Part shown: positions 817-18,797 of the stretch, one piece after another
Position numbering within the stretch: position 1 is the first letter of the stretch
How the letters are laid out: each line of letters begins with the position of its first letter
From: Actinomycetota bacterium
Lineage (GTDB): Bacteria > Actinomycetota > UBA4738
Length of the DNA: 53,064 bases
Assembly (NCBI GenBank): GCA_044870295.1
Contig: JBIOYQ010000021.1
Span: forward strand, 1 to 53,064
Direction: 5' to 3'
Notes under the pieces: generated by a model
The model's database searches: none
Told to the model about the DNA's origin: nothing
The model's input: the letters and a program-made list of their open reading frames with translations, nothing else
Position numbers and translations under genes: made by a program

Positions 817-1884
817 TCATCCCACGCCTTCGAACTGCTCCAGGAACCGAACGTCGCTCTCCCAGAGCATGCGGATGTCCGGTACCTCGAACCGGATCAT
901 GGCCAGACGGTCGTATCCCATGCCGAAGGCGAAGCCCGTGTACCGCTCGGGGTCGTAGCCCACGTTCTCCAGGACCGTGGGATGGACCATGCCCGCGCCC
1001 ATGATCTCGATCCAACCGGTGAAGGCGCACGTGCGACAGCCCGACCCGCCGCACGAGAAGCACGTCACCTCGAACTGCGCGCCGGGCTCGACGAACGGGA
1101 AGAACGAGGGGGTCATCCGGACCTGGAGGTCCTGGCCGAGCAGCTCGTGCAGCAGGGTCTCGACCGTTCCCTTCAAATGGGCCATGGACAGGCCTTCGTC
1201 GATGGCCAGGCCTTCGACTTGATGGAAGACGGGCATGTTCTTGGCGGTCACCGCCTCGTTGCGGTAGACGCGGCCGGGCGCCGCGATGTAAACGGGCGGC
1301 TCCTGGGCCTGCATGGTCCGGATCTGCACCGGTGAGGTGTGCGTGCGAAGCAACAGCTCGGGATGGCCCGGGACCTCCAGATAGGTCGTGTCCATCATGG
1401 TGCGGGCGGGATGGTCGGGCCCGATGTTGAGCGCGTCGAAGGTGCGCCACTCGTCCTCCACCTCCGGACCCTCGGCCACCCGATAGCCCATGCGCATGAA
1501 GATGTCCGCGATCTCCTGCTCGACGATGGTCAGCGGGTGCAGGGAGCCGGACCGGAGGCGGCGGCCGGGAAGGGTCAGATCGACGCGATCGGTCTGGAGG
1601 AGCGAGGCCATTCGCTGCTGCTCCAGCTCACCTCGCCGTTCGGTGATGGCGGTTCGAAGCGCGTCCCGCACCTCGTTGGTTCGCTGTCCCACGACCCGCC
1701 GGTCCTCCTCGGAAAAGGTCCCCAGGCTGCGCTGGACCGAGGAGAAGGGCGCCTTGCGCCCGAGCACCGCCACCTCGGCCTGCTCCAGCTCATCGAGCGA
1801 CGCCGCGGCGGCGATGAGCTCCAGCCCGCGCGTCAGCTCGAAGTCGAGGACCTCCAGGGCTCGCTGGGCGTTCGGCTCGTCCAT
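817..1884 (-). CDS. pheS: phenylalanine--tRNA ligase alpha subunit
   Basis: 355-aa ORF with class II aaRS PheS signatures (LLRTHTSPVQIRTM, GFAFGMGYDRLAMI). It lies immediately upstream of pheT. Confidence 0.97.
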   Translation of the reverse strand: MDEPNAQRALEVLDFELTRGLELIAAAASLDELEQAEVAVLGRKAPFSSVQRSLGTFSEEDRRVVGQRTNEVRDALRTAITERRGELEQQRMASLLQTDRVDLTLPGRRLRSGSLHPLTIVEQEIADIFMRMGYRVAEGPEVEDEWRTFDALNIGPDHPARTMMDTTYLEVPGHPELLLRTHTSPVQIRTMQAQEPPVYIAAPGRVYRNEAVTAKNMPVFHQVEGLAIDEGLSMAHLKGTVETLLHELLGQDLQVRMTPSFFPFVEPGAQFEVTCFSCGGSGCRTCAFTGWIEIMGAGMVHPTVLENVGYDPERYTGFAFGMGYDRLAMIRFEVPDIRMLWESDVRFLEQFEGVG

Positions 1885-2006: not shown

Positions 2007-3041
2007 GTGCCCGGTCACCTCTCCAGCAGAAGCCTTTCGCTCATGGTCGTCCTGGGGGTGCTGGCGACTGTTTCGCCCACGACCGGCGCGGTTGGCCAGA
2101 CAGACTCGGCATCCAAGAGCCATGCGAGGGCCCTGCTGCTCCCGACCCCTCGGTGTTGTATGGGGATGGCCTACGACGACGCCCGGGGGAACGTCGTCGT
2201 CTTTGGGGGACAGAACCGTGTCAAGGGATGGGAATTCCGCGACACGTGGACATGGGACGGGACCGCCTGGACCCGGCAGAGCCCGGTCCAGTCGCCGCCG
2301 CAACGCTTTTGGGCAGGGATGACCTATCACGCGGACTCGGCACGAGTGGTCCTCACCCTGGGTGAGGACTCGAACGACAACTACCTCGACACGTGGACAT
2401 GGAATGGCGCTGACTGGCAACGTGAACCTGTTGGACGAATGCCCTCCAGGCGCAACGCTCCGGGGATGACGTATGACAGCATTCGCCAAGAGGCAGTCCT
2501 CTTCGGCGGGTATCTGCTTCCGGGCCACACGGTCGTGTTCCACGACACGTGGACATGGGACGGAAGCGACTGGACGAAACGAACCCCCGGGATCCGGCCG
2601 GAAGGCCGATACGGCCACTCCATGGCGTTCGATGCCGCACGAGGGGTCACGGTCCTCTTCGGTGGGATCCGACAGGAAAACAAGATCTTTGGAGACACCT
2701 GGACCTGGGATGGGAGCGCCTGGACGAAGCCCTCGCCATCGTCCTCCCCTCCGGCACGGTCGTTCGCCAGCATGGCCTACGACTCCGCCCGCGGGGAGAC
2801 CGTGCTCTTTGGGGGCATCGCAGCCGACGGAGAGATCCTCGACGACACCTGGGTGTGGGATGGAACTTCGTGGACGCGGAGGCACCCCGATCTGTCGCCG
2901 GCACCCAGATCGAGCTCCGGTATGGCGTTCGATGTGGCCAACGGCGAAACAGTGCTGTTCGGGGGGACCGCGCCTGACGGTGCGCTCTACGGGGACACGT
3001 GGACGTGGGATGGGTCGGCGTGGTCGCTTCGCCAGGGGTAA
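2007..3041 (+). CDS. secreted Kelch-repeat beta-propeller protein (6 blades)
   Basis: GTG 2007 is preceded by GGGAGGAG. The N-terminus is signal-peptide-like (SLSLMVVLGVLATVSPTTGAVG). There are six repeats of about 50 aa, each with VLFGG ... DTWTWDG..W. The DNA motif gacacgtggacatgggacgg recurs about every 150 bp, near 2231, 2389, 2544, 2695, 2842 and 2993. Confidence 0.85.
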   Translation: MPGHLSSRSLSLMVVLGVLATVSPTTGAVGQTDSASKSHARALLLPTPRCCMGMAYDDARGNVVVFGGQNRVKGWEFRDTWTWDGTAWTRQSPVQSPPQRFWAGMTYHADSARVVLTLGEDSNDNYLDTWTWNGADWQREPVGRMPSRRNAPGMTYDSIRQEAVLFGGYLLPGHTVVFHDTWTWDGSDWTKRTPGIRPEGRYGHSMAFDAARGVTVLFGGIRQENKIFGDTWTWDGSAWTKPSPSSSPPARSFASMAYDSARGETVLFGGIAADGEILDDTWVWDGTSWTRRHPDLSPAPRSSSGMAFDVANGETVLFGGTAPDGALYGDTWTWDGSAWSLRQG

Positions 3042-3044
3042 GCG

Positions 3045-4508
3045 CTATGCCGACTCACCCGGCAGCGTGAGGGTGAGCTCGAGGCGGTCGCCCACCTGCG
3101 CCACCAGCGATCCACCATGCGCCTCGGCCAGCCGCTGAGCCACGAAGAGCCCGATCTTGCTGCCGCCGCCCGTCCCTGGCGTCCGTGGGACGAACAACCG
3201 GTCCGCGTCCTGCGGCGACACCGCGGTGCCCTGCCGCCACACACGAACGGTCGGGTGCGGCCGGTCCTCGACCTCCATCGTCACCGGCCCTCGGTCGCCG
3301 AACCACTGGGCGCTCTCGATCATGGCTAGCAGCATCGTCCGAAGCCTGGCGCGGTCGACCACGGCGGTGACCGGCCGGCCGGACACCTCGACATCTGCCT
3401 GCTCCCACGCCGTCGCGTCGGCCCGGACCTTCGTCGCCATCTCCAGGAGGTTCGTGGGGACCCGTGTCAGCTCCAGGGTGCCCGACGCTAGCTTGGCGGC
3501 GTCGACCACCTGGGACAGCACCACCTCCATCCGCTGGGCGTCGTGCTCCATCCCCTCGAGCATCATCCGGCGCTCGGCATCGGTCAGCCGATCCCACCTC
3601 GACCGCAGGGTCGCCGAGAAGCCCTTGAGTGCGGTGAGCGGTGATCGAAGGTCATGGGCTGCCCCGGCCACGATGTCCGCCAGGAAGAAGGCGGACTCGG
3701 GAAACGCGACCGGACGGCGGCCGACGCTTCGTTGCCGGGCGGCCTCGAACAAGACCAGGGTAGCCGCCGCGGCCAGGTTCAAGGACTCGGCTCGGCCCTG
3801 GATGGGAACTCGAACGGAGCGATCGGCCAACCCCAGCGCCACGGGCGACAGGCCGCGGGCTTCGTTGCCGAACAGGACGGCCGTCGGCCCCGACAGGTCA
3901 ACGTCCTGGACGACCTCATCCCCCGAGGCCGTCGCCGCCAGGACGGCGAATCCGCGTTCGCGAAGCCGATCGACGGCCTCAGCGAGCTCGACGTCCCTGA
4001 CAACTGGGACGTGAAACAGCGAGCCCGCGGTAGCTCGCACCGTCTTCGGGTTGTAGACGTCCACGGACGAACGGGTGAACACCACCGCGTCGGAGCCGGC
4101 CGCGTCGGCGGACCGGAGGATCGTTCCGGCGTTGCCCGGGTCGCGCACCTCGACCAGGACCGGGACGATGCCGCCGGATCCGTCCACGACCGCCGTCAGC
4201 GGGACGTCCACGAACCCCGCCACGGCCACCACACCCTGCGGGGTGACCGTCGAGGTGAGGTGCCCCATGACCTCCGGCGAGACGGTGTGGACGGGGGCCC
4301 CGGCCTGCTTGGCCAGGGAGATGACGGGCTCGAGTCGCTCCTCCGATTCCGGGGTCGCGAACACCTCCCTCACATCCGCGCCCGAGCTGAAGGCTTCGGC
4401 CACCGCCTGGAGGCCCTCGACCAGGAAACGGCGGTCCTTCTCGCGCAGGGCGCGCTTCTTCAACCGCGCGGCGGCGGTGACGCGCTTGTTGTGTGGAGAG
4501 GTGATCAC
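3045..4508 (-). CDS. SpoU/TrmH-family RNA 2'-O-methyltransferase fused to a histidine-kinase core (HisKA DHp + degenerate HATPase_c)
   Basis: The likely start is GTG 4508 (VITSPHNKRV...); the track start at 4790 would overlap rplT. Residues 1-260 carry the TrmH motifs (VRDPGNAGTILRSADAAG, LFGNEARGLS, VRVPIQGRAESLNLAAAATLVLFE). With no stop or internal start, the frame continues into an H-box (AGAAHDLRSPLTALKGF) and an ATPase-like C-terminus (GTGGGSKIGLFVAQRLAEAHGGSL). Total length is 487 aa. Confidence 0.8.
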   Translation of the reverse strand: MITSPHNKRVTAAARLKKRALREKDRRFLVEGLQAVAEAFSSGADVREVFATPESEERLEPVISLAKQAGAPVHTVSPEVMGHLTSTVTPQGVVAVAGFVDVPLTAVVDGSGGIVPVLVEVRDPGNAGTILRSADAAGSDAVVFTRSSVDVYNPKTVRATAGSLFHVPVVRDVELAEAVDRLRERGFAVLAATASGDEVVQDVDLSGPTAVLFGNEARGLSPVALGLADRSVRVPIQGRAESLNLAAAATLVLFEAARQRSVGRRPVAFPESAFFLADIVAGAAHDLRSPLTALKGFSATLRSRWDRLTDAERRMMLEGMEHDAQRMEVVLSQVVDAAKLASGTLELTRVPTNLLEMATKVRADATAWEQADVEVSGRPVTAVVDRARLRTMLLAMIESAQWFGDRGPVTMEVEDRPHPTVRVWRQGTAVSPQDADRLFVPRTPGTGGGSKIGLFVAQRLAEAHGGSLVAQVGDRLELTLTLPGESA

Positions 4509-4552: not shown

Positions 4553-4969
4553 TTAGGTCCGGGCTGCCGACCGCGCCCGAGGCCTGCGGGGCTTCGCGGC
4601 GGTCTTGGACACCGTCTCCAGTCCCTCGCGAGCGGCGGCGACCAGCGCGGTGAAGGCGGCGGGGTCGGTGACGGCCAGGTCCGCGAGGATCTTTCTGTCG
4701 AGCTCGACACCTGAGGCGCGAAGCCCCCGCACGAAGCTGGAGTACGACATGCCGTCGGCCCGGGAGGCGGCGCCGATGCGGGTGATCCACAGCCGGCGGA
4801 ACTGGGCCTTGCGGTCGCGCCGGTCACGGTAGGCGTACACGCCCGAGTGGAGGAGCTGCTCCTTGGCCACGCGATACCGGCGGTGGCGGGACCCCCGATA
4901 CCCCTTGGCCTGCGCCATGATCTCGCGGCGCTTTTTCCTTCCGTGGACGGCTCGCTTCACGCGGGGCAT
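4553..4969 (-). CDS. rplT: 50S ribosomal protein L20
   Basis: [38 protein letters not shown]... It has a short basic C-terminal tail and sits in the conserved infC-rpmI-rplT order. Confidence 0.95.
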
Positions 4970-4981
4970 GTCTCGACTCCT

Positions 4982-5173
4982 CTACTGGCCCAGCAGGCGC
5001 TTGATGGTGGTGGCTTCCGGGCCCACGGGGGCCATGCCGGTGACCCGGCGCTTCCGGCTGCCGGTCTTCTTGGTGAGCATGTGCTTGCCGGTGGCCTTGC
5101 GGTGCAGGACCTTCCCGGTCTTGGTGACCTTGAACCGCTTCGCGGCTCCTCGATGCGTCTTCATCTTCGGCAT
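4982..5173 (-). CDS. rpmI: 50S ribosomal protein L35
   Basis: 63 aa, [27 protein letters not shown]... Confidence 0.95.
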
Positions 5174-5234
5174 GACCGCTCCATCTTCCTCTTCCAGGGG
5201 ATCCCCTGCCCCGAACCCGGCGAACGAGCCTTCT

Positions 5235-5819
<585 letters not shown>

Positions 5820-10164: not shown

Positions 10165-10300
10165 AGCGTGCCCGTCCTCTCCCATCCCGACTGTACGGTC
10201 GGTCCCGGAGTTTCACCGGGTCCACCCCCGAGTGGCTCTCGGGGGGTCGCGGACTCTCACCGCCGGTGGGGAATCTCACCCCGCCCCGAAGACGAGCTAT
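10165..10300 (-). promoter_or_regulatory. FMN riboswitch (RFN element) in the ribD leader
   Basis: The minus strand reads ...gtcttcggggcggggtgagattccccaccggcggtgagagtccgcgaccc...gggtggacccggtgaaactccgggaccgaccgtacagtcgggatgggagaggacgg. This matches the conserved RFN core blocks (GGGGCGGGGUGAAAUUCCCCACCGGCGGU, CCCGGUGAAAUUCCGGGACCGACGGU, AGUCCGGAUGGGAGA). A TATACT -10-like box lies at 10316-10321. Confidence 0.9.
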
Positions 10301-10358: not shown

Positions 10359-11288
10359 TCAGGCGGAGCGGCGATCGACGGCGAAGGAGGAGTTCGGCTC
10401 CCGCTTGGCGAACTGCTTCATCTCGGTGGCCACCGCGACGGCTTCGCCGTAGTGGCCGAATCGCCGGCTCATGGTCGAGGCCACCCCCACGGAGATGGTG
10501 AGGATGGGGAAGCTTTTGGGGGTTCCCTGCCGGTCACGCACCTCGATGAAGCCACGCTCGGCGTCCTCCTGGTCGTAGAGGGTTGGAGCCAGCCCGTCGA
10601 ATCGGTCGCACAGAGTCTTGGCCACCGTCTCGGCCTGGTCGGGCTCGACCAGGATCACGAAGTCGTCGCCGCCGACGTGGCCCACGAACCCGGCCGGGCC
10701 GGCCACCTCGTGTACGGTCTCGGTCACCAGCCGGGCCAGGGCCTGGATGGCCCGGTCGCCCCGCACGAATCCATAGTTGTCGGTGTAGGCCTTGAAGTGG
10801 TCGAGGTCGGCGTAGAGCAACGCGAACGGATGCTCCTCCGACACCCGGCGTCGGATCTCCTCCTGCACGCGGATGTTGCCCGGCAGCCCCGTCAACGGCG
10901 ACAGGGCCCGCATCTCCCGCGCCCGGCGAAGCGTCCCCTTCACCCGAGCCAGCAGCTCGACCGGGTCGAACGGCTTGATGATGTAGTCGTCCGCACCGGA
11001 GGACAGCCCGAGGACCTTGTCGGAGGAGAGCGCTTTCGCCGTGAGCATGATGATGCTGGAGGAGCTGGTGCGGGGGTCGCGCCGCAACCGTTGGGCAACC
11101 TCGAAGCCGTCGAGCTTCGGCATCATGACGTCCAGCAGCACCAGGTCGGGACGGAGCTCGATGGCCCGGCTCAGCCCTTCCTCACCGTTGGACGCCACCG
11201 TCACGTCGTAGCCGGCGGAGCGCAGGTTCACCTCGACGAACCGCGCCACATCCGGATCGTCGTCCACCACCAGGACGGACTCGGACAT
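10359..11288 (-). CDS. response regulator with receiver and GGDEF-type domains (signature GGDDF)
   Basis: The REC domain shows VVDDDPD, the phospho-acceptor LLDVMMP and IIKPF. The C-terminal domain reads LYADLDHFKAYTDNYGFVRGDRAIQ...GHVGGDDFVILV. The ATG shares one base with the rpe stop (TGATG). Confidence 0.88.
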   Translation of the reverse strand: MSESVLVVDDDPDVARFVEVNLRSAGYDVTVASNGEEGLSRAIELRPDLVLLDVMMPKLDGFEVAQRLRRDPRTSSSSIIMLTAKALSSDKVLGLSSGADDYIIKPFDPVELLARVKGTLRRAREMRALSPLTGLPGNIRVQEEIRRRVSEEHPFALLYADLDHFKAYTDNYGFVRGDRAIQALARLVTETVHEVAGPAGFVGHVGGDDFVILVEPDQAETVAKTLCDRFDGLAPTLYDQEDAERGFIEVRDRQGTPKSFPILTISVGVASTMSRRFGHYGEAVAVATEMKQFAKREPNSSFAVDRRSA

Positions 11289-11959
11289 CAGCTCCCCCCC
11301 TTGAGCGCGGCGAGGCGGCGGGCGGCTTGGCCGGGATCGGGGGCCTTGAAGATGGAGGAGGCCGCCGCCAGCACGGTGGCCCCAGCGGCCAGACAGCGGG
11401 GCGCGGTGCGTTCGTTGATCCCGCCGTCGACCTCGACCTCGACGGACAGCCCCTGCCGGTCGATCTCCTCACGAACCTCTTCGATCTTGGGGAGGGCGTC
11501 CTCGAGGAAGGACTGGCCGGCCCACCCGGGGTGGACGCTCATGACCAGGACCCGATCGAGCTGCTCCAAGAGGGGGAAGACCTCCTTGACCGGCGTGTCC
11601 GGGTTCACGGCCAGGCCGGCCCGCATGCCCAGGCGCTGAGCCTCGGCGACGGTCTCGGCCGGGTCCTCAACGGCCTCCCAGTGGCTGGTGACGATGTCCG
11701 CCCCGGCCTTGGCGAAGTCAGGGAACAGCCTGGCGGGCCGCTCCACCATCAGATGGCAGTGCAGCGGCAGGTCGGTGACCCGGCGCACGCCTTCCACCAC
11801 GACCGGACCCACCGACAGGACGGGTACGAATTGGGCGTCCATACAGTCGATATGGATTAGTTCGACGTGCCGCTCCACCAGCTTTATCTGATCGGCCAGA
11901 TAGGCGTGGTCGGCCGAGAGGATCGAAGCGGCGATCTTCCCCCTGCCCTCCGGCGGCAT
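11288..11959 (-). CDS. rpe: ribulose-phosphate 3-epimerase
   Basis: 223 aa: IHIDCMDAQFVPVLSVGP, MSVHPGWAGQSF, VDGGIN. Confidence 0.95.
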   Translation of the reverse strand: MPPEGRGKIAASILSADHAYLADQIKLVERHVELIHIDCMDAQFVPVLSVGPVVVEGVRRVTDLPLHCHLMVERPARLFPDFAKAGADIVTSHWEAVEDPAETVAEAQRLGMRAGLAVNPDTPVKEVFPLLEQLDRVLVMSVHPGWAGQSFLEDALPKIEEVREEIDRQGLSVEVEVDGGINERTAPRCLAAGATVLAAASSIFKAPDPGQAARRLAALKGGS

Positions 11960-13516: not shown

Positions 13517-15328
13517 CTAGAGCTGGGGCTCCGCTTCGATCCGCTCGACGACTCCGTCGGCGGCGAGCCGTCGCACCTCTCGACCGAACCGATCGAAGCC
13601 GGCCTGGTCGACGGTCACCAAGCATAGCGTCCGCCCGTGGCCGGACCGACCCTCAGCAACAGCGTCGACGGGTGCGGAGACGACCACGTTCGCGCCAAGC
13701 GACTGGAGGGTCGGCGGAAGGTCCTCGCTCCCCTCCATGCGGAAGACCGGGTGGCCGGCCGGGAACCCCGCTTCGGCCCGGCGCTTCGCCTCGGCAAGGA
13801 GGAAGGGGACCGGGTCCCACCGGACGAGCGCCTGGATGGCCGGATGGCCCGGACGACGAGACTGGGCCAGCACACGGCCCCCACCCGAGCGCGGTCCGGC
13901 CCAGGCGGCGGCCTCCATCCACGTTGCCAGGGCCTGCTCCCCCGCCGTCATGCCGGCCCTGGCCAGGGCGCGATCGGGGTCGAGGATCGCCACCAGGTCC
14001 AGCTTGACGGGGCCGATCTCCTTCACCGCCGCCGCGGTCCCCACGACCACTCGACCGGGACCCGGCCGTGGGGGCGCGTCCTTGCCGGTGTCCAGATCGA
14101 CCGGCAGGGACGTCCTCCGCCGCGCCCACTCGGCGATGCGCTCGGTCCCGGCGGGCTCCACCCCGAAGGCCGAGCCACCACAGTTCGCGCAACGGCCGGC
14201 CGAGCCGCAGGTCCTGCACCGGGCGCGCCCCTCCTCGATGCCGATCGGCCCGTGGCACACGGCGCAGGCGGCCTGCTCCCCACACGTCCGGCAGACCCTG
14301 GCGATGCCGTAGCCTCGGCGAGACACGATCAGCGCCCCGGACCGGGCCTTCTTCAGCAAGGATCCAAGGCGCGTCGAGCGGTCCTCCGCTTCGGGCGCCA
14401 CCGTTTCCACGAGCGGCGATGCTGCCCGCTCGACGGTCCGGGGAGGCCGGGCAAGCTGCACGCTCCCGGCAGCGACGGCCAGGGCCGTCTCCACCGACGG
14501 CGAGAACGAGGCCAGCACGCATGCCGCCCTCTGCAGTCTGGCCCGTGCCGCGGCCACCTCGCGCACGTGGTAGTAGGGCGAGCGCTCTTCGCGATGGCCC
14601 GGGTGGACCTCGCGGCTGATCCAGATCAGTCCCAGCCGCTCCAGCGGCGCGAACACAGCCGGCCGCGTCCCCACCACCACCTCGTACCGCCCGGACCGGA
14701 TCTCCAGCCAGGTCCGGTACCGGTCGTGGGCATCGCCGCCCAGGAAGCTGACCGCCCGACCACCCATTCGCTCCAGAACCGCGGACGCCGTCGCGGGGAC
14801 CGGGTCGGCTTCGGGGACCAGCACGAGCGCCTGGCGACCGGCGGCCACGCAGGCTTCGACGGCAGCCGCGCACACCTCGACCTCGTCCTCCGGCAGCGGC
14901 CGCAGCCAGGTCACGCGTCCGGCTCCCAGGAGCTCCGCGCCTCCGTAACCCCCGAGCACGGTCGTGGGTCCTCCCACCGATGCGGGTGGGTGCTCCCGAA
15001 GATCGACGTGACCCTCCTCGCCCGCCACGCGAGGCGGATGGGACCGCTCGATGACGGTGGACAAGGGAGCGAGATACCGATCCGAGACCCATCGCAGCAC
15101 TTCCAGCATGGCGGGGTCGAAGAACCTCACCGCCGATCGAATCGACCGGACCGGAAGCAACCGACCGCCGGGGACATCGGAGGCCGGTCCGAGGATCCAT
15201 CCCTTCATGGTCCGGCCGTGGAACGGCACCGACACCAGGCTCCCCACGCCGGCCTCCTGCCCTTCCTTCAACAGATAGGTGAAGGGGCGGTCCAGGGCCA
15301 GGCGCGGAACGGAGACACAGACGTCCAC
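13517..15328 (-). CDS. priA: primosomal protein N' (PriA-like; no Walker A seen)
   Basis: 603 aa. N-terminal PriA 3'-DNA-binding-like region (LDRPFTYLL...VSVPFHGRTMKGWIL) and Cys-rich zinc region (CRTCGEQAACAVCHG...CRTCGSAGRCANCG). I found no GxGKT/S motif anywhere in the translation. Confidence 0.82.
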   Translation of the reverse strand: MDVCVSVPRLALDRPFTYLLKEGQEAGVGSLVSVPFHGRTMKGWILGPASDVPGGRLLPVRSIRSAVRFFDPAMLEVLRWVSDRYLAPLSTVIERSHPPRVAGEEGHVDLREHPPASVGGPTTVLGGYGGAELLGAGRVTWLRPLPEDEVEVCAAAVEACVAAGRQALVLVPEADPVPATASAVLERMGGRAVSFLGGDAHDRYRTWLEIRSGRYEVVVGTRPAVFAPLERLGLIWISREVHPGHREERSPYYHVREVAAARARLQRAACVLASFSPSVETALAVAAGSVQLARPPRTVERAASPLVETVAPEAEDRSTRLGSLLKKARSGALIVSRRGYGIARVCRTCGEQAACAVCHGPIGIEEGRARCRTCGSAGRCANCGGSAFGVEPAGTERIAEWARRRTSLPVDLDTGKDAPPRPGPGRVVVGTAAAVKEIGPVKLDLVAILDPDRALARAGMTAGEQALATWMEAAAWAGPRSGGGRVLAQSRRPGHPAIQALVRWDPVPFLLAEAKRRAEAGFPAGHPVFRMEGSEDLPPTLQSLGANVVVSAPVDAVAEGRSGHGRTLCLVTVDQAGFDRFGREVRRLAADGVVERIEAEPQL

Positions 15329-15371: not shown

Positions 15372-16559
15372 CTAGTCGAAGGCGCTGCGGAGCTCGTCGG
15401 CCTTGTCGGTCTCTTCCCAGGGGAAGCCCTTACGGCCGAAGTGGCCGTAGGCGGCGGTGTCCTGGTAGATGGGGCGGCGCAGGTCGAGGTGCTCGATGAT
15501 CGCGGCGGGACGGAAGTCGAACAACTCCGTGATCACGTCGACCAGCCGCACCGGGTCCACCTGGTGCGTCCCAAACGTGTCGACCGACAGCGACACCGGA
15601 TGGGCAGTGCCGATCGCGTACGCCACCTGGAGCTGCAAACGTTCGGCCAGGCCGGCCGCGACGACGTTCTTGGCGACGTACCTCCCCATGTAGGCGGCGG
15701 AGCGGTCCACCTTGGTCGGGTCCTTGCCGGAGAAGCACCCCCCACCGTGCGGGGCCATGGCGCCGTAGGAGTCGACCATGATCTTGCGTCCGGTCAGCCC
15801 GGTGTCGGCCTTCGGGCCGCCGATCTCGAACCGGCCCGTCGGATTGACCAGGATGCGGACGCCCTCGGCCTCCAGCGCCACCTCGCGCAGGACCGGCTCG
15901 ATCACCTCGGCGATCACGTCGGGCTTGAGGAGGCTGTCGATGTCCACTTCCTCGCGGTGCTGGGCGGAGATGACCACCGTGTCGATGCGAACCGGCCGGC
16001 CGTCGTCGTATTCGATGGTGACCTGGCTCTTCCCGTCCGGCCGGAGGTATGGAAGCACGCCGGCGCGACGCACTTCCGCCAAGCGCTTGGCCAGGCGGTG
16101 CGCCACGGCGATCGGCATGGGCATCAGCTCTTCGGTGTCCCCGCAGGCGTAGCCGATCATCATCCCCTGGTCGCCGGCTCCGGTTTCGTCGAACACGTCC
16201 GCCCGGCCTTCATGTCTGACCTCGAAGGACTTGTCGACGCCGACGGCGATGTCCGTCGACTGCGGCTGGATGGCCACGATCACGCCGCACGTGTCGCCGT
16301 CGATCCCGAACTTCGCATCCGTGTAGCCGATCGACTTGATCGTGTCCCGGACGACCTTCGGGATCTCCACGTAGGTCGACGTGGTGATCTCGCCGGCCAC
16401 GAACGCCACCCCGGTGGTGACCAGGGTCTCGCAGGCCACGCGGCCCAAGGGGTCGTCCGTCAGCACCGCGTCGAGCACGGCGTCGGAGATCTGGTCGGCC
16501 AGCTTGTCCGGATGGCCTTCCGTCACGGACTCGGATGTGAAGAGATAGCGCCTGCTCAC
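15372..16559 (-). CDS. metK: S-adenosylmethionine synthase
   Basis: GTG 16559 ([27 protein letters not shown]), [28 protein letters not shown]. The remainder of the 1065-aa track ORF (16560-18569) is antisense to the BNR gene. Confidence 0.96.
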
Positions 16560-16568
16560 GATCGGCGG

Positions 16569-16574
16569 ATTATA
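16569..16574 (-). promoter_or_regulatory. candidate -10 box (TATAAT) 9 nt upstream of the metK GTG
   Basis: The minus strand reads ggcTATAATccgccgatcGTG, and no SD lies between the box and the start. A perfect TATAAT is rare in this G+C-rich window. Confidence 0.35.
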
Positions 16575-16724
16575 GCCGCGCGGAGGACCCCTCCCCCGCA
16601 TCCGGGCGCAGGCATCAAAGGGCCTGGCTGTTCGACGGAGACCTTGACGGCCCGAGTGGGCCAGCCTAGGTTCTGCCCGGGCATCCCGGGCGTGGGAGGA
16701 GACCCGAGAAGGAGGGGGACCTCG

Positions 16725-18797
16725 ATGCGTCGTCGGATCGCATTCCTCGGGCTCGCCATGCTGGCAACCTCCGCGGTCGTCCAGCCCACCGCACACAGCT
16801 CGGCCAAGACAGAGCGGTGGGAACGGACCGGTGGGGACTACGACCGGCCGGTGGCGGCCCTGGCCATCGATCCCATCCTGCCTTCCACGATCTACGCGGG
16901 GAACACGGACGGCGTGGCCAAGACGACCAACGGGGGAAGGACGTGGAGGCCGGCCAACGGGGGCCTGTCCAGCCAGGACGTTCGGGCCCTGGCAGTCGAT
17001 CCCTCTGACCCCCGGATCGTCTTCGCAGGCGTGTCCGACCACACAGGCAATGGTGGAGTGTTCAAATCCATCGATCGAGCCAGGACGTGGGCGCCGTCGA
17101 GCCAGGGGCTGCCAGGACGCACGGTCATCACTGACTTTGTCTTTGACCCCTCCGATTCGCGCACGCTCTACATCGCGAATGACCAGGGCGCGCCTCAGGT
17201 CTACAAGTCGACCGACGGGGGTCTGAGCTGGGCGCCGGCCAGCAGCGGGCTCCCCCTGTTCAACATCGGGGTTCGGTCCCTGGCCATCGACCCTACCGAC
17301 CCTCTCACCGTGTATGCCGGGACCGATGACCTCCGGTCCTCCGGAGACGGGGTCTACAAGACCACCGACGGGGGGAACCAATGGGAGGCGACCAACACCG
17401 CCGAGTTGGCGGACTTTCATGTCTTCGCCCTGGCCGTCGACCCCTCCGATCATCTGACCGTCTATGCGGGAGCCGCCAGCCTGGGAGGCGACTCGCCGGG
17501 TGCCGTCTTCAAGACCACGGACGGTGGCGCCTCGTGGACCAACCTCACCGATGCCTCGGGCGTGCGGTCCCTGGTCATCGACCCGCTGCGCCCGTCGGTC
17601 GTGTATGCCGGAACCAATGGCGGTGGCGTGCTCAAGAGTCCCGACGGCGGCCTCACCTGGAAGGTCGTCAACGCGGGCTTGTCCAACCTGAACATCTCCA
17701 GCATGGTCATCGACCCGGTCCACACCCGCGCGCTCTATGCCGGCAGCGACGGAGGTGTGGACAGGACCGTCAGCGGCGGGGCCACGTGGTCGATGGTCCT
17801 GGCCTCGGGCTTCTTCCAGTACGTCACGACACTGGCCGTGGCCACATCCGACGCGAACACGCTGTATGCGGGGACAGGGTCGCAGGGGGTGTTCAAGACC
17901 ACCGATGGCGCGCGGACGTGGGTTGCCGTCAACGCCGACATCCCCAACACGCAGGTCCATTCCCTTGCCGTCCACCCCACGGACCCCCTGACGGCGTATG
18001 CAGGACTGGTCGCCTACAAGGAGGGCGCTCCTCCGCCGGGCGTGTACAGGACCACGGATGGTGGGGTGACCTGGCTTCTCAGCGACCAGGGCATCACCAC
18101 GGACGACATCCTCGCGCTCGCCATCGACGCGTCGGACCCGGCCACGGTCTACGCCGGGACCGACGATGGAGTCTTCAAGACCACGGACGGCGGAGCCTCC
18201 TGGTCCCGCTCGGGCCTGGGCATCCCGCCGGCCTTCTTCGTATACGGCCTTGCCATCGATCCCTCCAACCCCGCCATCGTCTATGCGGGGACGCAGAACA
18301 TCTACAGCTGGGAAGCGAACGACGACGGCGTCTTCAAGTCCACCGATGCGGGAGCTACCTGGATCCGGATGAGCCGGGGCATCGGAGGAGGATACGGGTT
18401 TCCCTCCGGCAGCTCGGTGTACGCCCTGGCCATCGATCCCACGGCCCCCCTCACCATCTATGCCGCGGCTTCGTGCGTGGACGACCCCTACCAGGAGGAG
18501 TGCTACGAGACCAAGATCTACAAGTCCGTCGACGGGGCAGCCCACTGGACATCCGTCCTGGACATCCACGGCCTGCGGTTCTCATCCATCGCCATCGATC
18601 CCTCCAACACTTCCACGGTGTGGGCCGGACACTACGGGGAATTAGGCGTGTACCGGACCCCCGATGCGGGGAGTCACTGGATGACGGTCAACGATGGACT
18701 CGAGGACCTCTTCGTGTACGCCCTAGCCGTGCGGCCCGTCGCTCCATTTACCGTGTACGCGGGGACCTTGAGCGGGGTCTTCGCATTCCAGGGATGA
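16725..18797 (+). CDS. secreted BNR/Asp-box-like repeat protein, about 14 blades (tandem 7-bladed propeller, sortilin/GH74/Ycf48-like)
   Basis: ATG 16725 follows GAAGGAGGGGG. Signal peptide [28 protein letters not shown] count 14 repeats of the form ALAIDPsdP.tVYAGT..[12 protein letters not shown]. The track's 1172-aa ORF adds an antisense-to-metK extension. Confidence 0.85.

What the first reader, a model, noticed from the sequence alone, without database searches (positions are those of the whole stretch)
3045..4508. SpoU/TrmH RNA methyltransferase fused in frame to a sensor-less, partly degenerate histidine-kinase core
Mycobacteria carry a stand-alone SpoU-family rRNA methyltransferase (tsnR-like) after infC-rpmI-rplT. 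Here that slot holds a single 487-aa ORF.
- Residues 1-260 carry all three TrmH motifs.
- After a linker of about 20 aa the same frame runs into a canonical H-box (AAHDLRSPLTAL, His285) and a CA-like domain.
- I read the DNA across the junction (about 3650-3730). It contains no stop and no ATG, GTG or TTG that could start a separate kinase gene.
- The kinase part has no TM segment and no PAS or GAF sensor, so the methyltransferase is its only N-terminal domain.
- The ATP-lid motifs look degenerate by eye. The N-box Asn appears replaced (LLAMIESAQWF) and G1 reads RQGTAV rather than DxGxG, while a G2-like GGGSKIGL is kept.
- This suggests a pseudo-kinase, phosphatase or phosphotransfer module coupling ribosome or RNA methylation status to two-component signalling.
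- No response regulator is adjacent. The only REC protein in the window is the REC-GGDDF gene about 6 kb away.
Basis: partly seen in the sequence, partly recalled or inferred. Interest (0 to 1): 0.72.

Follow-up and report, generated by a model that had tools for sequence, protein, structure and literature searches.

The report
rRNA methyltransferase fused to pseudo-histidine-kinase
A ribosomal-RNA methyltransferase gene has fused with the core of the signalling kinase gene that sits next to it in other actinobacteria; the kinase half has lost its ATP-binding residues but keeps its key histidine, which hints at an unrecognised link between ribosome making and two-component signalling.

Summary
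A 487-aa ORF on the minus strand (3045-4508) carries SpoU_sub_bind, SpoU_methylase, HisKA and HATPase_c, all above Pfam cut-offs. It is not a frameshift artefact. More than 120 protein clusters and about 75 species-level genomes, all uncultured Actinomycetota MAGs, encode the same fusion in the same slot: infC-rpmI-rplT-[fusion]-pheS.

The N-terminal half is a complete homolog of 23S rRNA A-loop 2'-O-methyltransferases (RlmR, RlmP/YsgA), with its catalytic residues invariant. The C-terminal half comes from the PAS histidine kinase that lies directly after this methyltransferase in Streptomyces, Thermobispora and Acidimicrobiales. By gene order that kinase is OhkA (SCO1596).

Other lineages show separate genes, SpoU-PAS-kinase fusions, and SpoU-kinase fusions with intact ATP motifs. 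The window's clade is a derived branch. Both N-box Asn, the G1 Asp and the central G2 Gly are replaced by A/S/G, A/S/G, invariant Arg and invariant Lys. The H-box (AAHD-I/L-RSP) stays invariant.

dN/dS is 0.07 for DHp and 0.13 for the CA-like domain, so both are under purifying selection.

Most likely this is an active rRNA methyltransferase carrying an ATP-independent regulator-docking, phosphatase or phosphotransfer module. The function is untested. I rate it a new variant of a known kind, of moderate to high interest.

The parts
3045..4508 (-). Whole fusion gene: 487 aa, GTG start at 4508, stop codon at 3045-3047
   Evidence: ORF list and translation. Pfam finds four domains. More than 120 full-length homolog clusters have the same architecture.
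4218..4490 (-). L30e-like RNA substrate-binding domain (residues 7-97)
   Evidence: Pfam MRM3-like_sub_bind E 2.6e-16 and SpoU_sub_bind E 5e-15. It aligns to the RlmR N-terminal domain.
3747..4160 (-). SPOUT (SpoU/TrmH) catalytic domain, residues 117-254. N126, R132, S242 and N244 match RlmR N122, R128, S236 and N238.
   Evidence: Pfam SpoU_methylase E 1e-36. RlmR E 1e-37 and YsgA E 2e-34. Foldseek top hits are RlmR, YsgA and AviRb. The catalytic residues are invariant in 54 homologs. RlmR mutagenesis data are in PMC12123411.
3693..3725 (-). Short inter-domain linker, residues 262-272. Residues 265-271 have pLDDT below 50. It is about 8 residues longer than in most relatives.
   Evidence: AF2 model. 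The spacing from ESLN to His has a median of 35 residues in the clade and is 43 here.
3483..3692 (-). DHp (HisKA) helical hairpin, residues 273-342, with the invariant H-box A-A-H285-D-(I/L)-R-S-P. The His285 codon is at 3654-3656.
   Evidence: Pfam HisKA E 3.6e-11. AF2 predicts helices 273-307 and 310-342. H285, D286, R288, S289 and P290 are invariant in 72 of 72 sequences. dN/dS is 0.067. It is 32% identical to the Streptomyces OhkA-type kinase, E 1e-29.
3060..3461 (-). CA-like (HATPase_c fold) pseudo-catalytic domain, residues 350-483
   Evidence: Pfam HATPase_c 33.3 bits. AF2 gives an alpha/beta domain with pLDDT mostly above 90. Foldseek matches HK853 (TM 0.75) and DivL. dN/dS is 0.134.
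3297..3335 (-). N-box remnant, residues 392-404 (MLLAMIESAQWFG). Both Asn are replaced (A395, S399). W402 is invariant.
   Evidence: Alignments to ZraS, HK853 and P0144. Column counts.
3234..3236 (-). Codon of Arg425, which sits in place of the adenine-binding Asp of the G1 box (DxGxG)
   Evidence: R in 71 of 72 clade members, against D in 9 of 9 OhkA-type kinases and 11 of 13 other fusions.
3156..3158 (-). Codon of Lys451, which sits in place of the central Gly of the G2 box (GxGxGL becomes G-S-K-V/I-G-L)
   Evidence: K in 71 of 72 clade members, against G in 9 of 9 OhkA-type kinases.
4553..5819 (-). Upstream operon partners: infC (5235-5819), rpmI (4982-5173) and rplT (4553-4969)
   Evidence: ORFs. 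The same order occurs in all related loci.
817..1884 (-). pheS, the conserved downstream neighbour. Here it is separated from the fusion by a convergent Kelch-repeat gene at 2007-3041 (+).
10359..11468 (-). REC-GGDEF (GGDDF) gene. This is only a candidate partner. It is syntenic in the clade but has not been shown to interact.
   Evidence: Pfam Response_reg E 1e-28 and a partial GGDEF hit. An ortholog lies about 6.3 kb upstream in 32 of 34 clade loci.

Best explanation
**What it is**
- The gene is a genuine, conserved fusion of two neighbouring actinobacterial genes.
  1. The SpoU-family 23S rRNA 2'-O-methyltransferase that follows infC-rpmI-rplT. It is an RlmR/RlmP-like A-loop type enzyme.
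  2. The DHp-CA core of the OhkA-type orphan PAS histidine kinase that normally lies directly downstream, before pheS.
- In this clade the PAS sensor has been lost.
- The ATP-binding residues of the CA domain have been replaced: both N-box Asn, the G1 Asp and the central G2 Gly.
- The phospho-acceptor H-box is invariant.

**Shown here**
- The architecture, its conservation, its evolutionary origin, intact methyltransferase catalytic residues, loss of the canonical ATP-site residues, and purifying selection on every domain.

**Inferred mechanism**
- The protein is an active, dimeric rRNA methyltransferase acting on nascent 23S rRNA.
- Its C-terminal four-helix DHp bundle cannot autophosphorylate from ATP.
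- It still docks an orphan response regulator, most likely an OrrA-like partner, because the DHp helix-1 residues match those of OhkA.
- It acts on that regulator as an ATP-independent phosphatase or sequestering module.
- The two halves are joined by only about 5-15 residues. Occupancy of the methyltransferase by substrate rRNA or SAM would therefore be transmitted to the DHp, so regulator phosphorylation would report ribosome-biogenesis load.
For: **Architecture and conservation**
- All four Pfam domains score above their cut-offs.
- More than 120 full-length clusters at 57-99% identity share the architecture.
- In 71 genomes SpoU and the kinase core lie in one stop-free frame, always between rplT and pheS.

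**Methyltransferase half**
- It is a full-length homolog of RlmR (E 1e-37) and YsgA/RlmP (E 2e-34). The alignment ends exactly at the RlmR C-terminus.
- Residues equivalent to RlmR N122, R128, S236 and N238 are invariant (PMC12123411).
- It is 50% identical (E 5e-79) to the Streptomyces rplT-adjacent SpoU gene.

**Origin of the kinase half**
- Unfused SpoU followed by PAS-HisKA-HATPase_c sits in the same slot in S. pristinaespiralis, Thermobispora, two Acidimicrobiales-type MAGs and L071. In two of these the stop and start overlap by 4 nt.
- The window's C-terminal half is 32% identical (E 1e-29) to the Streptomyces kinase.
- SCO1596 = OhkA, with cognate regulator OrrA (PMC9739842, PMC10345050).

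**Intermediate forms**
- SpoU-PAS-HK proteins of 733 aa.
- SpoU-HK proteins with canonical N, G1 and G2 motifs.

**ATP site**
- Position 395 is A/S/G, 399 is A/S/G and 451 is K in 71 of 72.
- Position 425 is R in 71 of 72.
- OhkA orthologs have N, N, D, G in 9 of 9.
- The Pfam HATPase_c score is barely above its cut-off, and many homologs have no precomputed HATPase_c hit.

**Selection**
- Median dN/dS over 37 pairs: SpoU 0.125, DHp 0.067, CA-like 0.134.

**Structure and context**
- AF2 pLDDT is 86, with a DHp hairpin plus an alpha/beta CA-like fold matching HK853 and DivL.
- No response regulator is adjacent.
Against: - No biochemical evidence exists. Phosphatase, phosphotransfer or docking activity is inferred only from the invariant H-box.
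- The H+4 residue is Ser, not the Thr/Asn of the classical HisKA phosphatase motif. OhkA orthologs also have Ser.
- The partner regulator is unknown, and no OrrA-like gene could be looked for because only loci, not genomes, were available.
- The equation of the Streptomyces neighbour with SCO1596/OhkA rests on gene order and numbering, not on a sequence comparison with SCO1596. The primary paper PMC3133208 is not held.
- The replaced pocket residues (R425, K451, W402) are conserved. That could mean a new ligand rather than an empty pocket.
- The genome scan that gave the 72 sequences used H-box and GSK motifs as search patterns, so conservation of those motifs in that set is partly ascertainment. 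The independent word- and HMM-based set of 54 shows the same conservation.
Confidence: 0.5

Rival explanations
1. It is a Spo0B/ChpT-like histidine phosphotransferase. The DHp His285 receives phosphate from a phosphorylated receiver domain and passes it to another receiver. The syntenic REC-GGDEF protein could be one of these. The CA-like domain serves only as a scaffold.
For: - A DHp with an invariant His plus a CA-fold domain lacking ATP-binding residues is the Spo0B/ChpT anatomy (established knowledge).
- A REC-GGDEF ortholog with an intact receiver pocket is syntenic in 32 of 34 clade loci. It is absent from the same position in lineages with unfused or intact-kinase versions.
Against: - The synteny lies inside a block of housekeeping genes (rib operon, infC), so it may be mere linkage.
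- No second kinase or second receiver has been identified.
- The DHp helix-1 residues are nearly those of OhkA, which pairs with a DNA-binding regulator (OrrA).
- No sequence similarity to Spo0B or ChpT was seen in the PDB searches.
Confidence: 0.15
2. It is a non-signalling appendage. The kinase-derived module has been co-opted purely as an extra dimerisation, RNA-binding or ribosome-assembly-factor domain for the methyltransferase. His285 is never phosphorylated.
For: - SPOUT enzymes are obligate dimers, and DHp is a dimerisation domain.
- The ATP-site residues are lost.
- The gene sits in a translation-factor operon with no regulator nearby.
- RlmR-type enzymes act on early assembly intermediates (PMC12123411).
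Against: - The H-box (H, D, R, S, P) is invariant in every sequence, and DHp is the most constrained part of the protein (dN/dS 0.067, against 0.125 for the enzyme domain). That is not expected if only a helical bundle were needed.
- Other pseudo-kinases that lost phospho-chemistry, such as DivL, have lost the His (established knowledge).
Confidence: 0.22
3. It is still a kinase or a nucleotide sensor with a remodelled pocket. R425, K451 and W402/W403 would create a site for a different nucleotide, such as GTP, (p)ppGpp or c-di-GMP. That nucleotide would either donate phosphate or allosterically switch the DHp.
For: - The replacement residues are themselves invariant (R425 and K451 in 71 of 72, W402 in 72 of 72), and the domain is under purifying selection.
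- Arg, Lys and Trp are typical guanine-nucleotide ligands (general knowledge).
- A diguanylate-cyclase-like gene is syntenic.
Against: - This is pure inference, and no docking or binding test was possible.
- The Mg-binding Asn is replaced by small residues.
- The GGDEF domain of the neighbour is itself atypical (GGDDF, partial Pfam match).
Confidence: 0.1
4. It is an artefact: two genes joined by a sequencing or assembly frameshift in this window.
For: Three related long-read MAG loci (L049, L069, L074) show frame breaks.
Against: - Those breaks fall inside the SpoU domain (around residues 196-222), not at the junction, so they look like indel errors.
- 71 genomes and more than 120 protein clusters from independent projects keep the single frame.
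- All domains are under purifying selection.
Confidence: 0.01

Closest known systems
OhkA (SCO1596), orphan histidine kinase of Streptomyces coelicolor, with cognate orphan regulator OrrA (SCO3008)
   Same: - It occupies the same chromosomal slot, directly after the rplT-adjacent SpoU methyltransferase and before pheS.
- It has a closely similar DHp (HE/D-L/I-RSPLT..KGF..TLL..W.R..D), 32% identity over DHp plus CA.
- It is cytoplasmic and orphan.
   Different: - OhkA-type proteins are separate genes with an N-terminal PAS domain and fully canonical N, G1 and G2 boxes.
- The window protein has the methyltransferase in place of PAS and lacks the ATP-binding residues.
- The identity of the Streptomyces neighbour with SCO1596 is inferred from gene order, not checked by sequence.
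RlmR (T. thermophilus, Um2552) and RlmP/YsgA (B. subtilis, Gm2553): SPOUT 23S rRNA A-loop 2'-O-methyltransferases
   Same: - It shares the L30e-like plus SpoU domain layout over its full length (E 1e-37 and 2e-34; about 37% and 34% identity).
- The catalytic Asn, Arg, Ser and Asn are conserved.
   Different: - Those enzymes end where the window protein's linker begins.
- RlmR D235, N154 and T156 are E241, A159 and A161 here, so the exact target nucleotide cannot be assigned.
Spo0B / ChpT histidine phosphotransferases
   Same: A DHp four-helix bundle with a conserved His, plus a CA-fold domain that cannot bind ATP (anatomy).
   Different: - No detectable sequence relationship.
- Those proteins are stand-alone relay proteins with known receiver partners.
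- This protein is fused to an enzyme and is derived from a class I kinase of the OhkA type.
Pseudo-histidine kinases DivL and RetS
   Same: - The HK853-like fold is retained with non-canonical catalytic function.
- DivL is among the structural matches (TM 0.73) and RetS among the sequence matches.
   Different: - DivL has Tyr in place of His, and both keep sensory domains.
- Here the His is invariant and the ATP site is the part that changed.
SpoU-HisKA-HATPase_c fusions with intact ATP motifs (P0144, P0136, P0145, P0394 and others; Acidimicrobiales-type MAGs) and SpoU-PAS-HK fusions (P0415, P0421)
   Same: The same two parent genes, the same slot between rplT and pheS, and the same orientation.
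   Different: - Those keep N-L-x-E-N-A, DxGxG and GxGLGL and so are probably active kinases.
- They are much rarer in the databases than the window's pseudo-kinase clade.

Membership tests
SpoU/TrmH (SPOUT class IV) RNA 2'-O-methyltransferases | SpoU_methylase domain with the three motifs and the catalytic Asn/Arg (motif 1) and Ser/Asn (motif 3) | tested here: met
   Pfam PF00588 scores 126.5 bits against a cut-off of 29.7. N126, R132, S242 and N244 are invariant and align to RlmR N122, R128, S236 and N238.
SpoU/TrmH (SPOUT class IV) RNA 2'-O-methyltransferases | Knotted alpha/beta fold and homodimer | tested here: inconclusive
   The AF2 monomer matches RlmR, YsgA, AviRb and RlmB structures (Foldseek E 5e-24). 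Knot topology and dimerisation could not be checked because no coordinates or multimer prediction were available.
rRNA-type SpoU enzymes (RlmB/RlmR/RlmP/Tsr group) | N-terminal L30e-like substrate-binding domain | tested here: met
   PF22435 E 2.6e-16 and PF08032 E 5e-15, residues 7-97.
RlmR / RlmP (A-loop Um2552 / Gm2553) | Methylation of U2552 or G2553 of 23S rRNA | not testable with these tools
   Only homology is available (E 1e-37 and 2e-34). The base-contacting RlmR D235 is Glu here.
RlmB (G2251) | NCBIfam equivalog score | tested here: not met
   TIGR00186 scores 120.6 bits against a cut-off of 160.15, and NF008386 scores 93.6 against 366.
Class I (HisKA) histidine kinases | H-box with phospho-acceptor His followed by an acidic residue, in a DHp helical hairpin | tested here: met
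   PF00512 scores 43.4 bits against 26.9. H285-D286 is invariant. AF2 predicts helices 273-307 and 310-342.
Class I (HisKA) histidine kinases | N box with Mg/ATP-binding Asn residues | tested here: not met
   N-L-x-E-N-A corresponds to A395-M-I-E-S399-A. Position 395 is A/S/G/V and position 399 is A/S/G/V/T in 72 of 72.
Class I (HisKA) histidine kinases | G1 box DxGxG (adenine-binding Asp) | tested here: not met
   R425 in 71 of 72. The second Gly is absent.
Class I (HisKA) histidine kinases | G2 box GxGxGL | tested here: not met
   The motif reads G449-S-K451-V/I-G453-L. The central Gly is replaced by an invariant Lys, and the flanking Gly residues are kept.
Class I (HisKA) histidine kinases | ATP-dependent autophosphorylation | not testable with these tools
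   Needs biochemistry.
OhkA-type orphan kinases of Actinomycetota | Position between the rplT-adjacent SpoU gene and pheS, plus the family-specific DHp sequence | tested here: met
OhkA-type orphan kinases of Actinomycetota | N-terminal PAS domain and canonical CA domain | tested here: not met
   No PAS hit. The ATP motifs are replaced.
Canonical two-component system | Cognate response regulator encoded next to the kinase | tested here: not met
   There is no REC ORF within about 5 kb in the window or in 70 related loci. The only REC is the REC-GGDEF gene about 6 kb away.
Spo0B/ChpT histidine phosphotransferases | Phosphotransfer between two receiver domains via the DHp His | not testable with these tools
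   Only the anatomy resembles them. No sequence match was seen.

The most novel reading that the evidence does not exclude
The methyltransferase is the sensory input of the OhkA-type signalling pathway.
- Binding of unmethylated 23S rRNA A-loop in assembling 50S particles, or SAM/SAH occupancy, would set the output of the attached or adjacent kinase core towards an OrrA-like regulator.
- Ribosome-biogenesis status would then control development and secondary metabolism across Actinomycetota.
- The recurrent fusions (with PAS, without PAS, and with a remodelled nucleotide pocket) would be Rosetta-stone evidence for a physical SpoU-OhkA complex in Streptomyces too.
- That would identify the long-unknown signal of OhkA.
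- In the window's clade the remodelled pocket (R425, K451, W402/W403) might additionally read a guanine nucleotide.
Probability: 0.2. Interest if true: 0.8.

Novelty: new variant of a known kind. Interest (0 to 1): 0.6.

Why it matters
- OhkA/OrrA/WblA is a conserved developmental and antibiotic-production switch in Streptomyces, and its input signal is unknown.
- The OhkA-type kinase is always encoded directly after a 23S rRNA methyltransferase in the infC-rpmI-rplT...pheST cluster. In some genomes the two genes overlap by 4 nt, which suggests translational coupling.
- The two genes have fused, probably more than once (the unsupported tree suggests this), in at least three architectures. This gives a concrete, testable hypothesis: the kinase and the methyltransferase work as one unit and link ribosome biogenesis or SAM status to two-component signalling.
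- The window's clade adds a natural 'kinase-dead but His-intact' version under strong purifying selection in about 75 uncultured species. It is a useful system for asking what a DHp domain does without an ATP-binding CA domain.
- All these proteins are currently annotated only as 'TrmH family RNA methyltransferase', so the signalling half is invisible in annotations.

Tried and rejected
**Hypotheses rejected**
- Frameshift or assembly artefact: rejected.
- True gene splits in L049, L069 and L074: rejected. The frame breaks lie inside the SpoU domain, so they are likely long-read indel errors.
- RlmB, TrmH (tRNA Gm18) or thiostrepton-resistance (Tsr/NshR) identity: NCBIfam scores are far below the cut-offs.
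- My first mapping of E398 as the replacement for the Mg-binding Asn: rejected after alignment to intact relatives. E398 is ancestral, and S399 is the replaced position.

**Searches that led nowhere**
- Literature searches for a described SpoU-HisKA architecture found nothing relevant.
- One search was wasted on author-name matches.
- The primary OhkA paper (PMC3133208) is not held, so the SCO1596 sequence and the authors' view of its neighbours could not be checked.
- P0364 could not be located on a contig.

**Limits of what was done**
- The order- or family-level taxonomy of the window's lineage could not be resolved. All relatives are MAGs labelled only Actinomycetota or Actinomycetes.
- The NJ tree of kinase cores has no support values and a weak outgroup. 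I use it only to suggest more than one fusion event.
Full report
**1. The observation**

- The ORF lies on the minus strand, 3045-4508, and starts with GTG 44 nt after the rplT stop. It encodes 487 aa. Homologs start M-I-T-S at the same point.
- Pfam finds four domains, each above its curated cut-off:
  - MRM3-like/SpoU_sub_bind, residues 7-97.
  - SpoU_methylase, residues 117-254 (126.5 bits).
  - HisKA, residues 278-343 (43.4 bits; cut-off 26.9).
  - HATPase_c, residues 385-483 (33.3 bits; cut-off 26.4).
- No PAS, GAF or membrane segment is present.
- The junction has no stop. It is not a credible separate start.
- The window holds only one REC ORF (REC-GGDEF, 10359-11468) and only one kinase-like ORF.

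**2. It is not an artefact**

- A search of 5.8 billion proteins returned more than 120 clusters of 57-99% identity. All are about 475-500 aa and have the same domains.
- A scan of one genome per GTDB species found the kinase-like half in about 77 genomes, all uncultured Actinomycetota or 'Actinomycetes' MAGs.
- In 71 of these genomes, SpoU and the kinase-like half share one stop-free frame.
- The order infC-rpmI-rplT-[fusion]-pheS holds wherever the contig holds those genes (68 of the 71 fused loci show pheS and 69 show rplT). pheS usually follows at once, but several kb intervene in a few loci, e.g. L054 and L009.
- Three long-read MAGs have frame breaks, but these fall inside the SpoU domain, so they look like indel errors.
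- Nei-Gojobori dN/dS on 37 pairs of 78-97% identity gives medians of 0.125 (SpoU), 0.067 (DHp) and 0.134 (CA-like). Every part is under purifying selection, and DHp is the most constrained.

**3. The methyltransferase half**

- Residues 1-261 align end to end with Thermus RlmR (23S Um2552; E 1e-37) and Bacillus YsgA/RlmP (Gm2553; E 2e-34). The alignment stops exactly at the RlmR C-terminus.
- Foldseek ranks RlmR, a Sinorhizobium TrmH-family enzyme, YsgA and AviRb first.
- Four residues whose mutation nearly abolishes RlmR activity (N122, R128, N238) or substantially impairs it (S236) (PMC12123411) correspond to N126, R132, S242 and N244. All four are invariant in 54 homologs.
- RlmR D235 is Glu241 here, N154 is Ala159 and T156 is Ala161. 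The target nucleotide therefore cannot be assigned.
- NCBIfam scores for RlmB, TrmH and NshR/TsnR are far below their cut-offs.
- The domain is 50% identical (E 5e-79) to the SpoU gene that follows rplT in Streptomyces pristinaespiralis, so it is that gene's positional and sequence ortholog.

**4. The kinase-derived half**

- AF2 (pLDDT 86, pTM 0.63) predicts the following:
  - a disordered stretch at residues 265-271;
  - a helical hairpin at 273-307 and 310-342;
  - an alpha/beta domain at 350-481.
- The alpha/beta domain matches HK853 (TM 0.75) and DivL.
- The H-box A-A-H285-D-(I/L)-R-S-P is invariant in 72 of 72 genome-derived sequences and in 54 of 54 database sequences.
- Alignment to intact relatives maps the ATP-binding motifs as follows.

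| Canonical motif | Window residues | State in 72 clade sequences |
|---|---|---|
| N box N-L-x-E-N-A | A395-M-I-E398-S399-A400 | 395 is A/S/G/V; 399 is A/S/G/V/T; never Asn |
| G1 DxGxG | R425-x-G427-x-A429 | R in 71 of 72 |
| G2 G-T-G-L-G-L | G449-S450-K451-(V/I)-G453-L454 | K in 71 of 72 |

- W402 is invariant.
- The nine OhkA-type kinases examined have N, N, D, G at positions 395, 399, 425 and 451 in 9 of 9.
- The residues that bind Mg-ATP in GHKL kinases are therefore gone. They have been replaced by other conserved residues, so this is not drift.
- One caveat applies. The genome scan used H-box and GSK peptides as patterns, so those two motifs are partly ascertained in the 72-sequence set. 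The independently collected 54-sequence set agrees.

**5. Where the kinase half came from**

- Locus L071 has a stand-alone SpoU gene followed by a separate PAS-HisKA-HATPase_c gene. That gene has canonical motifs and a very similar H-box region.
- Its homologs (60-66% identity) are the about 350-420-aa PAS kinases of Streptomyces, Thermobispora, Actinomadura, Frankiales and others.
- Context look-ups show infC-rpmI-rplT-SpoU-[PAS kinase]-pheS-pheT in four further genomes:
  - S. pristinaespiralis;
  - Thermobispora bispora;
  - an Acidimicrobiales MAG;
  - a further, unnamed MAG contig.
- In the last two, the SpoU stop and the kinase start overlap by 4 nt.
- In S. coelicolor the histidine kinase in this seven-gene run is, by numbering, SCO1596. 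This is OhkA, an orphan kinase that represses antibiotic production and promotes aerial mycelium and sporulation. Its cognate orphan regulator OrrA (SCO3008) activates wblA (PMC9739842; PMC10345050; PMC6585502; bioRxiv 10.64898/2026.01.30.702861).
- The link from 'Streptomyces neighbour' to 'SCO1596' rests on gene order and on my recollection of the SCO1594-1600 numbering. It was not checked by sequence, because the primary paper is not held.
- The window's C-terminal half is 32% identical (E 1e-29) to the Streptomyces kinase over DHp plus CA.

**6. A family of fusions**

- A profile search of 1.84 billion representatives found about 25 clusters (at 50% identity) that span the whole profile.
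- Many of the more distant ones (P0134, P0136, P0137, P0141, P0142, P0144-P0146, P0152, P0166, P0394) are SpoU-HisKA-HATPase_c with canonical N, G1 and G2 boxes.
  - P0144 sits in the same slot.
  - P0166's cluster includes an Acidimicrobiales MAG protein.
- P0415 and P0421 (733 aa) keep the PAS domain between SpoU and HisKA and occupy the same slot.
- An unsupported NJ tree places the window's clade as one group, with P0128 (also degenerate) next to it. It places the P0134 fusion among unfused kinases, which suggests more than one fusion event.
- The series is: separate genes; SpoU-PAS-kinase; SpoU-kinase; SpoU-pseudokinase. The last form is by far the most populated in current databases.

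**7. How it most likely works**

Shown here:
- an intact methyltransferase;
- a short tether (ESLN-to-His spacing has a median of 35 residues and is 43 here);
- an invariant phospho-acceptor motif;
- loss of the canonical ATP ligands;
- orphan status.

Inferred:
- The protein methylates the 23S rRNA A-loop region early in 50S assembly, as RlmR does (PMC12123411).
- Its DHp bundle cannot be charged from ATP.
- It still engages a receiver protein as a phosphatase or docking module, with the state of the methyltransferase transmitted through the short linker.
- The DHp helix-1 positions that set partner specificity in EnvZ-type kinases (H+7, H+11 and H+12; from memory of Skerker et al. 2008) are T, G, F in both the window clade and OhkA orthologs. 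This points to an OrrA-like partner.

Rivals:
- A Spo0B/ChpT-like relay, possibly with the REC-GGDEF protein. Its ortholog lies about 6.3 kb upstream in 32 of 34 clade loci, though that may be mere linkage.
- A purely structural appendage. The invariant H-box and the lowest dN/dS in DHp argue against this.
- A remodelled pocket for another nucleotide, which is speculative.

**8. Comparison and novelty**

- Each half belongs to a known family, and pseudo-histidine-kinases are known.
- What appears undescribed is the combination, its origin from the neighbouring OhkA-type gene, and the conserved replacement of the ATP site.
- I found no paper that describes the combination. The databases call these proteins only 'TrmH family RNA methyltransferase'.
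- I rate it a new variant of a known kind.
- Its main value is the Rosetta-stone link between a ribosome-biogenesis enzyme and a developmental two-component pathway whose signal is unknown.

Noticed in passing
window 10170-10297 (-): An FMN riboswitch (Rfam RF00050, 109.5 bits) lies ahead of the ribD-ribE-ribBA-ribH operon.
   Followed up: no
window 2007-3041 (+): A Kelch-repeat protein gene is inserted convergently between the fusion gene and pheS. Its end (3041) is only 3 nt from the end of the fusion gene (3045). In most related loci pheS follows the fusion directly.
   Followed up: partly
window 10359-11468 (-), and about 6.3 kb upstream of the fusion in L004, L008, L014 and others: A REC-GGDEF protein has an intact receiver pocket but an atypical GGDDF motif and only a partial GGDEF Pfam match. 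Its ortholog is syntenic in 32 of 34 pseudo-kinase-clade loci. It is absent from that position in the Streptomyces, Thermobispora and intact-kinase-fusion loci.
   Followed up: partly
L085 6001-8202 (P0415); also P0421: 733-aa single ORFs with SpoU, then a linker of about 110 aa, then PAS-HisKA-HATPase_c. They sit between rplT and pheS and form a third fusion architecture.
   Followed up: partly
L086 2779-4547; L087 2677-4565: In an Acidimicrobiales MAG (L086) and a further, unnamed MAG contig (L087), the SpoU stop and the PAS-kinase start overlap by 4 nt. This suggests translational coupling and an easy route to fusion.
   Followed up: no
P0200 (417 aa) and P0238 (2017 aa), from the representatives search: P0200 reads as ribosomal protein L20 followed by the SpoU methyltransferase in one ORF. 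P0238 is a 2017-aa protein with four stretches matching the query profile (best stretch: profile 264-472, the kinase-like half). Either could be a real fusion or a gene-calling artefact.
   Followed up: no
window 15372-18569 (-) and 13653-15200 (-): A 1065-aa open frame has S-adenosylmethionine synthetase domains only in residues 675-1052. The long N-terminal part and the neighbouring 515-aa ORF have no Pfam hit. These may be over-long open frames in GC-rich DNA.
   Followed up: no
L071 6282-8305: One MAG (JBKOZJ010000117) keeps a stand-alone SpoU gene followed by a separate PAS kinase with canonical motifs. It was picked up by the same H-box pattern and serves as a useful unfused comparator.
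   Followed up: yes
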